From assembly GCF_003704095.1 (NCBI RefSeq), contig NW_020844940.1, positions 1-64,000 of the forward strand: 64,000 nucleotides of DNA, written 5' to 3'. Origin of the DNA: Pocillopora damicornis (taxonomy: Eukaryota). Of the stretch, positions 1,779 through 19,146 are shown one piece after another (the first letter of the stretch is position 1; the number at the start of each line of letters is the position of its first letter). The position numbers and the translations under genes were made by a program. The notes under the pieces are model-generated. The model searched no databases, had not been told where the DNA came from, and worked only from the letters and a program-made list of their open reading frames with translations.

Positions 1779-2802
1779 GGTTCCAGCATCATACAAAATA
1801 GAGAATCTAAGTCAACTAAAGACCCGAACACTGAAAACATATTGCCACCACTTGGCAGGTATTCAAACAACACCACCATTTACATATTGTGTGCAGTATT
1901 TCTTGTGATCTTATCGGTGGCTATTGTGTTTAAGTTGCAAAAGAAAAATAAAGGTAGAAGTCAATCAGAAGAAACTACAGCTGATGCACCTCCATCCTTG
2001 CCAGGCCCATCATTGTCAGGCCAATCAGAGCAAGGTGATGAAGCTTGTCATATTGATTTAGGAACAAACCATGTTGTTTATCGAGGTGCCCATTCAAGTG
2101 AGATGGGAGACAAATCCCTAAACACAGTATCCGCTTTGACTCATGGGACTGAAAATAATGGTTCAGGTAATTATTGTCAAACTTATTGTTGATTGATCTA
2201 CATTTCCAAAATGTCAGCTGCTAGTGTAAAGAGTAAGAAACTGACCAAAACTGTTTGCACTCATGCACACAGCAGCTTTGAAAAATATAGTGTTAATTAT
2301 TATTCAGATTATCTCACTTCCTGTTTCATTTTTCCTCCAAAGTATGGATAAATATGGTGCCCTCATGCTTAGTAGCTAAGCATCAGCAAGAGCTGACACT
2401 AATCTGACATTTGATATATTCCCATTCTCCTTTAAGGCACCAGTTTTGATAAATGAACTCGAGGCTCTGAGTCTTGGTTTTTTTTATTTTTGTTAGTGTA
2501 TATACATTTTTTTGAAAAAATGTTACCTTTATTGTAAATATAATTACACCCATGAGTATCAACCACCACTATGGTTTTTGAAGGCTGACATTTCAGACTG
2601 TAACCCTTTGTATTGCAGTAGCTCATTCAATTTGTTTATTAGTAATTTATTATTTTATCTCAAGCAGACAGAGTTGAGGTAGAAGCACAGCTTCCAGGTA
2701 CTCCTTCTTGTATTAATGAAACACCAAGGGATTTACACCAACCAACTGACAAGAACACATTACGCCCAAACATTGTACCTTGTCTGGTGCCTGCTTCCTT
2801 GG
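1779..2802 (+). CDS. Partial TNFR-superfamily gene (stalk, TM and juxtamembrane exons), paralog of the 6389-9960 gene in inverted orientation
   Basis: Exon 1779..2166 encodes GSSIIQNRESKSTKDPNTEN...IYILCAVFLVILSVAIVFKLQKKNK...ENNGS, highly similar to the TM part of 8160-8528 on the minus strand, with donor G|gtaatt. The intron is also homologous to 7708-8159. The next exon 2665..2802 (ADRVEVEAQLPG...VPASL, G|gtgagt) is phase-compatible. The segment is bounded by N gaps on both sides. Confidence 0.7.
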
Positions 2803-2940
2803 GTGAGTGTCAGTTTTAGTGCCTAGTACTTATGAGTATTNNNNNNNNNNNNNNNNNNNNNNNNNNNNNNNNNNNNNNNNNNNNNNNNNNNNNNNNNNNN
2901 NNNNNNNNNNNNNNNNNNNNNNNNNNNNNNNNNNNNNNNN

Positions 2941-4319
2941 TCATGATGTTTTTTATCTTGCCCGCAGCAGTCACTGCATGGATGACATCCACCAGATATC
3001 TTATCCATATAGAAGCCCTTGTGACATGTTCCTAGACACTTTGTGGTATCTGATTCAGGGGTACACTCTCCAGACTTTTTCTCATGTTTGTCACAGTTTC
3101 AGCAACTTTTGCAGGTGGTGTAATCATGACTGTCTGAGAAATTTACCCCACCAATACAAGGGATACATTTTATTGGTGTGCTAATTGAGACACTAGAAGC
3201 ACAAGGCACAGTTGCTCCATGCCCCATTGGGCATTTTAACATAGTACATTTCCAGAAAATGGAATAAGTAGCATTTATTACTCGTTCTATTTCATCAGGT
3301 CCTGGCTTTCGACGTTTTTGAATATTCCCAAATGCTTCATATAAAACAACAGCCAACTGCAAAACAGTTTTTTAACTTTATTAAGAACTTAATTTATTAA
3401 CACACAAGCACATGTACACAAGCAGAGGTTATTACTTCTCAGAAATTACATGGAAAGAGAAACATCAACAACCGTGTCATTGCTATCAGAAATGATTACA
3501 GGTCTATTCCAACCAAAGTCTTAACTCCATGTCATTTTAAAGATGTAAATTTTAAGTTATTTTTACAGCAGGTCCAGACCTGTCCTTGGGGTTGCCTCAG
3601 ACTGACCTACCTCAACAAAAAGTATATGTATGTATGCATGTACACATATGTACCCATTTTTACCAGATTTTCCCAATCGTGTTCACAAAAATGTAAAATA
3701 AAAAATCAAGCACAACTAAAACTAAGGGCACAATAATATAGATATAACTGTTGCTCAAGTAAGCACGGTTATGACAGCATTCGCAATTTGGCGTTTTATA
3801 TGCGACAAATTTAACATTCACTCGAAGACAGGAGCAAAAGTAACGTAAAAAAAAAGGTTTCAGAACATGTTGTCAAGAAACTGGTTGAAAATAAGTAGGA
3901 AATACACTTTCAATTCATGATGACATTATTTTGAAGAAAAAACCTTCGCACAGCACACTACAATAAAATGATAAATTTTTTTTCGTTTCTCTGGAAGACT
4001 GTAATAGAAATCTTGATCAACGAAGGGTGCGTGAGCTTCTGAGTGAAACCCTCGCGATGAAACTTACTGCGACATAGTTGTTAGCGAGATAAGTTATGAA
4101 AAAAATCTGTAAAGCAGTTATAGATTCCGATTTTACTTTACTAAGCTAACAGAAAGCGCGTAAAGGGCGTGTGACGATAAATCAAATTACTCCATTTTCA
4201 ATCATTTTCTTGCGCGTTCTGAAACTTTTTTTAGAAATACTGTACTAATAATATTATGCTGATTTGCAACTTTAATTGTGATCACCTACCAAACAACAAA
4301 TGATCTTTGCTGTTTTCAT
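2941..4319 (-). pseudogene. TNFR-superfamily gene (3 CRDs) with in-frame premature TGA; 3' part lost in the gap
   Basis: Exon 1 4319..4290 is MKTAKIICCL|gtaggt. Exon 2 starts at 3356 (ttttgcag|) LAVVLYEAFG...KCPMGHGATVPCASS...CIPCIGGVNFSDSHDYTTCKSC*NCDKHEKKSGECTPESDTTKCLGTCHKGFYMDKISGGCHPCSDCC. The cysteine pattern continues in frame past the TGA at 3101-3099. Confidence 0.7.
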
Positions 4320-16354: not shown

Positions 16355-18328
16355 CTAATTTGTGGGCAATGTTTGATTTTGCACCCATTCATCTATAACC
16401 TGAATCACATCATGTCGCTCAAGTTTTGTTAATAAGGATATGAGGTGATTAAGTGTTCCAGAGTTTGGCTTGCTTGCAAACTTTTCCATTAGTAGCACAC
16501 GCGATGGGTTGTTACTTTTTTGTTTGATTGAGGTGATCTCTGATGATTTAAGGCCAAGTTCATATCCCAGCATTCTATAATCATTCTCATCTGTGACTCT
16601 TTCAATGTCAAGTAGCCTGCACATTTCACCGATGATAGGTAGAGGTACATCTGTTATGTAGGTTGAATACCCAAGGTTATCCTTCTCAGGTTGAAGAGGT
16701 GGAATTAAGTTACAGCCTGCTCTATGGTTTTCCCCTTGCATATTAGCAACTAATGGATCAAAATCAAAAATGAAAAAATTAGCATCACATTTTCAAATAA
16801 ATTATGAGACATGTCACTAACAGTGGTGGCAAAATTTCATATCTAAAATTTTTTCTTGTAGGTTTGTAGACCAGGAGTTTACTTTGTCAAAATTCACTGT
16901 AAGTGAGGATCTCATCCTGTGAAGAATCATTTTGAAGGCTAGAGACTTGAATTCTAAAATATTTCTTGCCAAACAGAAACAAAATAAATGACTTCATCCT
17001 TCAAAGGAGGAAATAGTAAAAAGTATTAATTATGGAATTACTTGTATAAATAAGGAAAATACTTAACATGATTGTTTCTGTTATATAGAGATCACAATCA
17101 CTTCAAATGGCACTGTTTTATATTTCTCCAGAGCTATCATGATTTTGCCTCAGTAATTAACCCTTAGATTTCTAATTATTCAATTGAAAAATTAGATCAG
17201 TTAATGAACTATTAGTTTTCCCTAATTTCACTGACCTTCATCTGTGGAATTTGAGGGTTTATCATCAAGGGATGATGGAATTCCTTTCTGAACTGAGTCT
17301 TTCTCAGCCATGTTCTCAAACTGATCTCCTGTTACAACCTCATGATCTTTATTACAGTAAACTGTATTTGAATTTCTTCTTGATCCATCAGTACCATGGG
17401 TGCACTGCCCATTAATCTTCCTTCTTGTATCAGGGCTGTCTTCTTCACTCTGATTTAAAGGAGAAAATTCGACTACTTGTACACTTCTGCTTTGTCTGTT
17501 TTTCCTTACCTTTTTAAACAGGTAGATTAAAAAACAACAGAGTATGATGAAAATAAAAACACCCAGAATGTATGCTATTCCTTTGATCCACCTCATGCTT
17601 TCAGCATGTTCATGTACTGTTTTGTGTACAGGCATAATGATCACACTTTCTGTAGGTACCACATCATGCTTTTGATTTGCAGATGAAACACTTGTTGATG
17701 AAGATTGGATTGGCTGGGTCCTTGAAGGAACTGAAATACTAGTGAGGCTTTGAAGAAAAGGAGTTATAGCTGTATGGATCTTGACTGATTTGAATAAAGA
17801 TGAGGATGTTGCAATGACTGTAGAGGGGCTGAACATGGATTGTTCATCCTCTTTGATTTCTGCATCTTTCTGACATTTTTCAATGATGTCATCATCAGCA
17901 TCTGTGAAGCAACAGGAATCACATGACTGACATTCATGGGTTGTTTTGTTTTGATAAAATCTATTGTCACATTCACATTGCACATCACTAGATGGGGTAC
18001 ATTCAGCTGAGACATGCTTGTGCTTCCCTGAACAGACTCCACAAGGTTTGCACTTTTCAGTACTTAGGCTGTTAGAGAAGTTTATGCCCATGGTGCAAGA
18101 AACACAGTGAATGTCTGTTCCCTTTGGTACAGTTGATCCACACTGAACAGAGGAACCTGCACCCTCCTGACATTCGGGACAAGGCCAGCATCCTTCACAC
18201 TTGCCAGTTTTAGGATCTATGATCTTGATATATCCTTCCTCAATGCAATCTGGGCACTGGCCTTTAATACCTCTACCAGCACTGAATGTTGAAAGTGCAA
18301 GAAATACCTGAGGAATAAAAGACAACAT
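16355..18328 (-). CDS. TNFR-superfamily death receptor-like protein (EDAR/TROY-like CRD pattern): 3 CRDs, S/T stalk, TM, death domain
   Basis: Exon from ATG 18328 (an upstream in-frame ATG at 18409 is blocked by TAA) to 17236 (G|gtcagt). It carries CRDs CPDC..CWPCPECQEG..CGST..HCVSC..CKPCGVC..ECTPSSDVQCEC..CQSCDSCC and TM IAYILGVFIFIILCCFLIYLF. Last exon 16749..16355 (tag|TT, phase 1) has the death domain MCRLLDIE..NDYRMLGYELGL..LTKLERHDVIQVIDEW. Confidence 0.85.
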
Positions 18329-19099
18329 CAAGAAGGTGTGAAGAACAAACAAGCAGAGAAAAACCTCTCTGTTTTCCTTTTAAGAAAGTGATCTATCTGC
18401 CTTAGACATGGTCCTGGAGAAATATTAAATCGAAAGTCTCGCTACCAAAAGAGAGTCCATTAGTTGGAATTCACTAAAATTCGGAGAAATGTGGTCGGTT
18501 ATTTACCAAAGAAACAATACAAGTAGCTAAAATCAGAAGGGTCAGATTTAAACATATAGATTACATGAAACATAAATGTCTCGCGACGACGACTTGTTTT
18601 TTCTGCGTACTTATTTGTTGCGAGATACGTTTAGCTTAGCTTAATTACTGAAGGCTGCCATCGTGCACTTTGGAACGAGAGCGTAATGGAGATTTGAAAG
18701 TTTTCGTTGAGACAACGATCTGACGTTTTCCTTTAGTATTTTCCTACAATAATTGCTGACACTGCAACTTACCAAAATCGCAAAAAATTTTGAGATTAAC
18801 ATCGTGTCCCTCTTAAAGAAGGATATGGACAAATATACAGGAGGAAAGTTCATCGCTCGTTTCCCTAAAATAGAAAACTGTAAAATGAAGTAGAAAAATG
18901 TAAAATGTACTTCTAGTATCAAATTCGCTCTTATAGTACCTCGATAGAGAAAAACATAAATTAATATTTGTTCAACCCATCGATCGAATTAGAGAAAAAT
19001 TACCTTTGTATATGTATAGAGTTGATTGTAGGTTCGAAAATTGGCTGAACTGCTAAGAGCTAGTAATTCACGAAGGAAAACCGTCAACAAAGAAAACTG

Positions 19100-19146
19100 T
19101 GACGTCACTTGTTCACTACAGCACAGCTCCTCGTCGGGGATTCCCC
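19100..19146. promoter_or_regulatory. CRE (TGACGTCA, 19100-19107) plus kB site (GGGGATTCCCC, 19136-19146) upstream of the TNFR gene
   Basis: Both are consensus motifs, 28 bp apart, just upstream of a candidate minus-strand 5' UTR exon (donor aaag|gtaatt at ~19003). Confidence 0.6.

What the first reader, a model, noticed from the sequence alone, without database searches (positions are those of the whole stretch)
1779..19146. Actively evolving cluster of TNF/death receptors in a basal metazoan
At least four TNFR-like units lie within 19 kb: a 3-CRD gene with a premature stop, a 1-CRD death receptor, a 3-CRD death receptor, and an inverted paralog of the 1-CRD gene. The complete ones share an architecture with all CRDs, stalk and TM in one exon and the death domain in a terminal phase-1 exon. 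Expanded TNFR repertoires in corals are established. The birth-and-death features seen here (CRD loss, nonsense allele, inversion, shared kB sites, 3' UTR MITEs) suggest a diversifying immune/apoptosis locus (inference).
Basis: partly seen in the sequence, partly recalled or inferred. Interest (0 to 1): 0.7.

Follow-up and report, generated by a model that had tools for sequence, protein, structure and literature searches.

The report
Coral death-receptor cluster with chimeric gene
A reef coral's cluster of four TNF-receptor-like genes includes one spliced hybrid that joins one neighbour's outer, single cysteine-rich part to another neighbour's death-domain tail, which would likely couple one receptor's ligand input to the other's cell-death or immune signal.

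Summary
The four units are real TNFR-like genes of a Pocillopora coral. C (3 CRDs, death domain) is identical to RefSeq XP_027041833.1, 'TNFRSF16-like'. A carries a stop codon where 40 of 40 matched homologues have a residue. D is a true paralogue of B, but its inversion is untested, because it lies on a 1,062-bp contig between two placeholder gaps.

Its exon 2 is 80-83% identical to D-type proteins; its last exon is 77-79% identical to Pocillopora A-type death-domain exons and 28% to the D-type one. Trees conflict (AU p 0.002 and 7e-46). The junction recurs in a P. verrucosa RefSeq model and in an RNA contig. A second, independent swap appears in P0312.

Homologues suggest the cluster is old (Stylophora, Montipora). 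The CRDs are the least or near-least variable part, so diversifying ligand binding is not supported. Birth-and-death of coral immune clusters is published; this death-domain swap was not found in eight literature searches. Ligands and signalling are untested. Verdict: new variant of a known kind, interest 0.45.

The parts
18773..18853 (-). Gene C exon 1 (signal peptide start, phase 0)
   Evidence: spliced model identical to XP_027041833.1
17236..18307 (-). Gene C exon 2: 3 CRDs (20 Cys), S/T-rich stalk, TM, juxtamembrane tail; phase-1 donor
   Evidence: Pfam TNFR_c6 23 bits; homologue P0001 matches p75NTR at E 4e-8
16355..16749 (-). Gene C last exon, death domain (C-type)
   Evidence: Pfam Death E 3.5e-10; spliced protein P0001
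9883..9960 (-). Gene B exon 1 (signal peptide, D-type)
   Evidence: exon 1 plus exon 2 read-through identical to XP_027041836.1; 63% to Stylophora D exon 1
8160..8844 (-). Gene B exon 2: single CRD (8 Cys), stalk, TM, tail; D-type
   Evidence: 80-83% to 5 Pocillopora-type D proteins, 63% to Stylophora LOC111324500; CRD1 33-37% to A type
7269..7707 (-). Assembly gap inferred to hold B exon 3 (phase 1-1) and possibly the chimera breakpoint
   Evidence: D intron 2 is 501 nt; P0135 holds the exon; inference
6389..6816 (-). Gene B last exon, death domain of A type
   Evidence: Pfam Death E 5e-6; 77-79% to Pocillopora A-type, 69% to Stylophora A, 28% to Stylophora D; tree
4290..4319 (-). Gene A exon 1 (signal peptide start)
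   Evidence: RNA contig loose end at 3357 matches it; model; P0059
2941..3356 (-). Gene A exon 2, cut by a gap: half CRD1, CRD2, part of CRD3
   Evidence: 137 of 138 residues equal to intact P0036
3099..3101 (-). Nonsense codon TGA in gene A
   Evidence: homologues have Q 30, R 9, W 1 of 40 matched; the RNA contig carries a Gln codon
1779..2166 (+). Gene D, 3' part of exon 2 (stalk, TM, tail) on an isolated contig
   Evidence: 100% to 1-CRD protein P0080 over 129 aa; 5' loose ends are B/D-type stalk
2668..2802 (+). Gene D exon 3 (phase 1-1)
   Evidence: GT..AG joint skipping 501 nt in RNA run X12
10151..10161 (.). kB-like palindromic site upstream of B
   Evidence: motif match only
19136..19146 (.). 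kB-like palindromic site upstream of C
   Evidence: motif match only
15932..16325 (.). MITE-like element 30 bp behind C's stop codon; common family

Best explanation
This is a tandem cluster of four TNFR-like receptor genes in a Pocillopora coral, and gene B is a spliced chimera of D-type exons 1-3 and an A-type death-domain exon, likely formed by recombination within phase-1 introns and predicted to couple D-type ligand input to A-type death-domain signalling. Shown: the exon structures, the two parentages of B, the spliced junction, and A's stop codon. Inferred: (1) the cluster is old, since A-type and C/D-type genes appear to be neighbours in Stylophora and Montipora; (2) D-type genes arose from a 3-CRD ancestor by losing CRD2-3 inside exon 2; (3) after the Pocillopora-Stylophora split, a duplication joined D exons 1-3 to a copy of A's last exon, and because both introns are phase 1 the frame survived; (4) A's stop is a CpG transition (CGA to TGA), probably segregating and probably degraded by NMD; (5) the receptors would act as type I death receptors that bind a coral TNF ligand and recruit death-domain adaptors toward caspase-8 or NF-kB/JNK, by analogy with vertebrate death receptors and Acropora work. 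Confidence: about 0.85 for the chimera, about 0.5 for a single recombination event as its route, about 0.6 for death-receptor signalling by B.
For: Identity matrix: B last exon 77-79% to 3 Pocillopora-type A, 69% to Stylophora A, 28% to Stylophora D; B CRD1 93-96% to D, 33-37% to A. The Pocillopora-Stylophora A distance is also 68-69%, so B's tail split from A after the genera did. Trees: B's death domain falls in a 99/98 clade with Pocillopora A-type domains, and holding it with Stylophora D is rejected at p-AU 0.002. B's CRD1 falls with D, and holding it with A CRD1 is rejected at p-AU 7e-46. The same junction is in P. verrucosa RefSeq XP_066021374.1 (P0135, 31-Mb contig). In RNA run X12, one contig runs from a D/B-like exon 3 into B's last exon and another from D exon 3 into the Stylophora-D-type last exon (loose ends at 2795 and 2802; translated by eye). 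The A ectodomain with the A tail is the old pairing (Stylophora P0035, Montipora P0150/P0304, Porites P0151). Both introns are phase 1.
Against: The Pocillopora D death domain itself was not retrieved; only a 30-nt loose end ties it to the Stylophora type. A's own last exon is outside the assembled window, so the A-type pairing rests on homologues. B's exon 3 and probably the breakpoint lie in a gap. The order C-B-A-D is not what one unequal crossover between direct copies would give. B's CRD1 is 47 of 49 identical to D while stalk, TM and tail are 70-82%, and several A-type tails exist (P0158, P0357), so gene conversion may have reshaped the dates. B's single CRD has no Pfam hit, no PDB sequence hit, no Foldseek hit at E<=0.001 and no VIA match at Z>=2. 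The AU groups were chosen after searches had been seen. No ligand or adaptor was tested.
Confidence: 0.8

Rival explanations
1. B is an old chimera whose two halves were later homogenised with D and A by gene conversion, so it only looks young; P0312 could be its orthologue.
For: P0312 also joins a D-type ectodomain to an A-clade tail. Mosaic alleles (P0147) and the near-identical CRD1 of B and D point to conversion. P0357 groups with P0158 yet ends like B.
Against: B plus P0312 is rejected as a clade for the death domain (p-AU 2e-53) and the ectodomain (p-AU 0.0016). B and D differ by about the same amount in intron 2 (0.17) and at synonymous sites (dS 0.17), which fits one age. Conversion of both halves would also produce these results, so they do not exclude it.
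Confidence: 0.15
2. The chimera is a scaffolding error that joins a D-like contig to an A-like contig across gap 7269-7707.
For: The junction lies in an N gap; gene models fuse neighbours in this cluster (RMX47553.1, XP_066021374.1).
Against: The junction is in an RNA contig and in a separate P. verrucosa assembly whose model includes exon 3.
Confidence: 0.03
3. D's opposite orientation is a scaffolding artefact and all four genes lie on one strand. This concerns the first reader's inversion and is compatible with the chimera.
For: D is a 1,062-bp contig between two 100-N gaps; its 5' exons, its last exon and A's 3' exons are all missing there. No listed contig bridges the gaps.
Against: Nothing seen contradicts the orientation either; an inverted D would make the order C-B-A-D easier to explain by an inversion with duplicated breakpoints (inference).
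Confidence: 0.4
4. The locus is under diversifying selection on ligand-binding CRDs, as in a pathogen arms race.
For: Divergent C and C' forms (about 80% identical) both appear next to B; B versus D dN/dS is 0.63 in stalk, TM and tail.
Against: Amino-acid diversity is lowest or near-lowest in the CRDs in all five groups: 0.020 vs 0.036-0.086 (C), 0.074 vs 0.124-0.216 (C plus C'), 0.011 vs 0.012-0.032 (B), 0.019 vs 0.020-0.112 (D), 0.050 vs 0.099-0.150 (A) (listed cluster members only, no codon model).
Confidence: 0.12

Closest known systems
Expanded coral TNFR repertoire (40 in Acropora digitifera, 39 CRD proteins in P. damicornis; PMC6208414 passage; PMC4979521)
   Same: CRD-TM-death-domain receptors in corals; gene C is already annotated (XP_027041833.1).
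   Different: The parts I read treat whole receptors or a single ancient CRD-DD fusion; they do not describe recent exchange of death-domain exons among paralogues.
p75NTR / TNFRSF16 (PDB 1sg1, 3buk, 3ij2)
   Same: Only PDB sequence matches of C's homologue P0001 (E 4e-8 to 6e-8, CRD region); RefSeq name 'TNFRSF16-like'; S/T-rich stalk (30%) and a death domain.
   Different: C has 3 CRDs and an 8-cysteine CRD1; p75NTR has 4 CRDs (recalled). Orthology was not tested. B's death domain hits UNC5 weakly (E 0.013) and no TNFR.
Birth-and-death tandem arrays and NAHR in coral genomes (PMC10236652; PMC12314368)
   Same: Tandem immune-gene duplicates of mixed age, hard to assemble and annotate.
   Different: In the passages read these concern whole-gene copies; 'TNF' occurs 0 times in either main text. 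Here recombination inside genes made a new domain combination.
Stylophora LOC111324500 (D type) and LOC111324498 (A type)
   Same: The two parental architectures, on one 983-kb scaffold.
   Different: B combines the front of the first with the tail of the second.
Grindelwald-like single-CRD receptors (10.1101/2024.07.27.603686)
   Same: One CRD, TM; the paper reports one such P. damicornis receptor with a death domain.
   Different: B/D have CxxCxxCxxC, not the CXXCXXXC signature, and derive from a 3-CRD coral lineage. I could not map the paper's UniProt ids to these genes.

Membership tests
TNFR-superfamily death receptor | Signal peptide and single TM (type I) | tested here: met
   Hydropathy only: N-terminal segment 1.8-2.1 in A, B, C; TM 2.9-3.0 in B, C, D. 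A's TM is in a gap (seen in P0036).
TNFR-superfamily death receptor | Extracellular TNFR CRD, gene C | tested here: met
   p75NTR match E 4e-8 for P0001; Pfam TNFR_c6 E 1e-4 but 23 bits, below the 29.4 cut-off.
TNFR-superfamily death receptor | Extracellular TNFR CRD, genes B, D and A | tested here: inconclusive
   B: no Pfam, PDB or fold match; rests on 65% identity to C's CRD1. A: TNFR_c6 17.3 bits. D's CRD is in a gap (P0080, P0013).
TNFR-superfamily death receptor | Cytoplasmic death domain | tested here: met
   Pfam Death above cut-off for C (40.3) and B (27). A and D only through homologues: P0035 25.2 bits; P0050 22.2 and P0016 20.7, just below 22.6.
TNFR-superfamily death receptor | Binds a TNF-family ligand and recruits DD adaptors to trigger apoptosis or NF-kB | not testable with these tools
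   No ligand or adaptor identified; no complex job sent.
p75NTR/TNFRSF16 orthologue | Four CRDs (recalled) | tested here: not met
   C has 20 ectodomain cysteines in three CRDs.
p75NTR/TNFRSF16 orthologue | Groups with p75NTR in a tree of animal TNFRs | not tested
   No vertebrate sequences were in the trees.
Chimeric gene by exon shuffling (gene B) | Two parts with conflicting ancestry | tested here: met
Chimeric gene by exon shuffling (gene B) | Compatible intron phase and a spliced junction | tested here: met
   phase 1; RNA contig junction in 1 of 1 RNA run laid; P0135
Chimeric gene by exon shuffling (gene B) | Breakpoint mapped in the intron at nucleotide level | not testable with these tools
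   No genome held; parental introns are in gaps.
Grindelwald-like receptor | Single CRD with CXXCXXXC signature | tested here: not met
   B cysteines at 1, 4, 17, 20, 23, 26, 37, 49.

The most novel reading that the evidence does not exclude
The locus is a mix-and-match death-receptor haplotype system: death-domain exons are swapped and converted repeatedly between receptor fronts (B, P0312, the P0357/P0158 tails), and colonies differ in which versions they carry (C versus C' at about 80% identity, B possibly present or absent, A null or intact), so individual corals wire the same ligands to different death or immune outputs.
Probability: 0.25. Interest if true: 0.72.

Novelty: new variant of a known kind. 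Interest (0 to 1): 0.45.

Why it matters
Coral TNFRs are linked in the literature to heat stress and apoptosis, but how their large repertoire gains new functions is open. Genes B, D and A form a natural swap experiment: B shares its front with D and its tail with A, so ligand specificity and signalling output can be separated. The locus is also mis-annotated: GenBank RMX47553.1 fuses C, B and A, and RefSeq XP_066021374.1 fuses a C'-type gene with B. Counts of coral TNFRs and reports of 'in-frame double receptors' may be affected by such merges.

Tried and rejected
(1) A plus a flipped D as one gene: rejected, because loose ends show D continuing into a B/D-type stalk and A into its own stalk. 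(2) A TAG in B's apparent signal peptide as a second nonsense codon: rejected, it is the exon 2 acceptor. (3) B and D as alleles: rejected (different last exons; equal contig lengths). (4) No whole genome is held; the metagenome scan confirmed 0 of 306 pattern matches; so gene order elsewhere and D's orientation stay open. (5) Two 25-nt loose ends have no match in the window (best 7 mismatches). (6) The model of C's ectodomain was poor (pLDDT 52.7) and was not searched; B's CRD model (76.8) gave no significant fold match, though several TNFR chains were among the weak Foldseek rows. (7) The short truncated A peptide is not in the protein collection. (8) A TRAF-motif regex scan (recalled motifs) gave two short hits, one in C's extracellular stalk: no support. 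(9) Depth in X1 is about 2:1 for D:B, but about 1:1 in X2 and X3; the tool says this is no copy number, so it is not used as evidence. (10) Three answered look-ups of earlier findings returned nothing. (11) No codon-level dN/dS on CRDs or death domains was possible; homologues came as proteins only. Supplements of the papers were not opened and may list these genes.
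Full report
Setting. The window is a gapped animal scaffold (36.8% GC, 20 N gaps). No genome is held. My spliced model of gene C is identical to RefSeq XP_027041833.1 of Pocillopora damicornis, named 'TNFRSF16-like', and B's exon 1 plus exon 2 read-through is identical to XP_027041836.1. The organism is therefore a Pocillopora coral.

Anatomy. C: exons 18853-18773, 18307-17236 and 16749-16355, phases 0 and 1, 515 aa, three CRDs. B: exons 9960-9883 and 8844-8160, an exon inferred in gap 7269-7707, and 6816-6389; one CRD. 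A: exons 4319-4290 and 3356-2941 (cut by a gap), with TGA at 3101-3099. D: plus strand, 1779-2166 and 2668-2802, on a 1,062-bp contig between two 100-N gaps. Pfam Death passes its cut-off for C and B; TNFR_c6 is below cut-off for C and A and absent for B and D. C's homologue P0001 matches only p75NTR chains in the PDB (3 sequences, E about 5e-8). B's CRD found no independent support in sequence or fold searches and rests on 65% identity to C's CRD1.

Four genes, not alleles. Contigs of 3 DNA runs and 1 RNA run were laid on 900-3600. D continues 5' into a B/D-type stalk and A continues 3' into its own stalk, so A and D are not halves of one gene. D is spliced (GT..AG, 501 nt). One RNA contig leaves D exon 3 into a sequence that, read by eye, gives nine residues identical to the last exon of Stylophora LOC111324500. 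Another leaves a D/B-like exon 3 into B's last exon. B and D thus end in different exons. No listed contig bridges the gaps beside D (46 pieces were not shown), so its orientation is untested.

B is a chimera. B's last exon is 77-79% identical to three Pocillopora-type A last exons, 69% to Stylophora A and 28% to Stylophora D. Its exon 2 is 80-83% identical to five D-type proteins and 63% to Stylophora D; its CRD1 is 33-37% identical to A. In a 23-row death-domain tree B sits with Pocillopora A-type domains (99/98), and forcing it with Stylophora D is rejected (p-AU 0.002). In a 15-row CRD1 tree it sits with D (86/89), and forcing it with A is rejected (p-AU 7e-46). Rows were picked by hand from about 380 proteins, mostly near-duplicates, and the groups were named after searches had been seen. 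The same junction, with exon 3, is in P. verrucosa XP_066021374.1. The A front with the A tail is the old pairing: Stylophora, Montipora and Porites homologues have it. Since Pocillopora A and B tails are closer to each other than either is to Stylophora A, the swap likely postdates that split, unless conversion has masked an older event.

Wider history (inferred). Stylophora LOC111324498 and LOC111324500 share a 983-kb scaffold. Montipora foliosa XP_068694894.1 (C/D-type front, D-type tail) and XP_068694900.1 (A type) share a 66-Mb contig with accessions six apart. Adjacency is inferred from these numbers only. P0006 and P0149 have three CRDs with the D-type tail, so the one-CRD form most likely arose by loss of CRD2-3. 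P0312 joins a Stylophora-D-like front to another A-clade tail and does not group with B in either part, which indicates a second swap. Further A-type tails (P0158, P0357) and a C' form about 80% identical to C occur. Equal longest-contig lengths put C' with B in three cases and C with the P0357 tail in one; I did not compute the chance rate of such matches, so these are hints.

The nonsense codon. A equals intact P0036 at 137 of 138 residues; P0036 has Arg at the stop. Among 40 matched A-type proteins the residue is Gln 30, Arg 9, Trp 1, as expected of a mutable CpG codon (inference). The RNA contig carries Gln. In X1 (47 of 115 depth) and X2 (3.8 of 6.8) part of the cover shows no change at this codon, which suggests the stop is shared by other samples; those contigs were not listed, and X3 has no cover.

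Selection and regulation. The CRDs are the least or near-least variable region in all five groups measured, and B versus D gives dN/dS 0.63 over 123 non-CRD codons. This argues against diversifying ligand binding. Strict kB sites lie upstream of B and C only, in unrelated sequence. The MITE behind C belongs to a family with 15 terminal matches in the window.

How it most likely works. By analogy with vertebrate death receptors (own knowledge) and with Acropora experiments summarised in PMC4979521, these are type I receptors that would bind TNF-family ligands and signal through death-domain adaptors. Keeping the death domain in a last exon behind a phase-1 intron lets recombination in that intron change the output module without breaking the frame. 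B would then respond like D and signal like A. Neither step was tested, and B's lone CRD may bind weakly or not at all.

Literature. Read: PMC4979521, parts 1-2 of 4; bioRxiv 10.1101/2024.07.27.603686, part 1 of 6 and 12 passages; PMC6208414, 12 passages; PMC10236652, 12 passages; PMC12314368, 4 passages. Quistad 2014 was seen only as cited. No supplements were opened. Eight searches (listings only apart from the above) showed no report of death-domain exon swapping among coral TNFRs; the library lacks most subscription papers.

Verdict. A known kind of locus with a well-supported, apparently undescribed chimeric receptor. New variant of a known kind; interest 0.45.

Noticed in passing
window 2941-19518; P0330, P0135: GenBank model RMX47553.1 (1076 aa) fuses C, B and part of A; RefSeq XP_066021374.1 fuses a C'-type gene with B. 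The 'in-frame double' P. damicornis TNFRs in bioRxiv 10.1101/2024.07.27.603686 may be such merges; I could not map its ids.
   Followed up: partly
P0003 cluster versus P0002 cluster: Two C forms about 80% identical, each apparently next to B; no listed contig length is shared between them; P0147 looks like a C'/C mosaic. Divergent alleles or paralogues.
   Followed up: partly
P0312, P0019: Second D-front/A-clade-tail receptor from an unnamed transcript source, independent of B by AU tests.
   Followed up: partly
P0024 and P0129: An A-type and a C-type protein share a longest-contig length of 5,304 bp, which would fit a haplotype without B between them; may be coincidence.
   Followed up: no
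window 11243-11860, 13242-14163, 14365-15251: Three diverged copies of a repeat of up to about 900 bp between B and C (64-77% identical), with a 28-bp hairpin at 11211-11272.
   Followed up: no
window 11863-12843: Element of about 980 bp with perfect 27-bp terminal inverted repeats; looks like a non-autonomous Tc1/mariner-type insertion (recalled).
   Followed up: no
window 5677-5943 and 6122-6302: Inverted repeat with 96-nt arms and a dispersed repeat copy behind B's stop codon.
   Followed up: no
window 48808-50130 (+): KDM8/JMJD5-like gene (Pfam Cupin_8 and ARM_KDM8_N).
   Followed up: partly
window 39323-41726 (+) and 44076-48604 (-): ORFs that resemble DCLRE1B/Apollo and a CMTR2-like cap methyltransferase by eye (recalled); the four pieces scanned had no Pfam hit. 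40326-40378 is repeated exactly across a gap at 40479.
   Followed up: partly
P0152: A protein with two identical tandem A-clade death-domain units; real duplication or assembly artefact.
   Followed up: no
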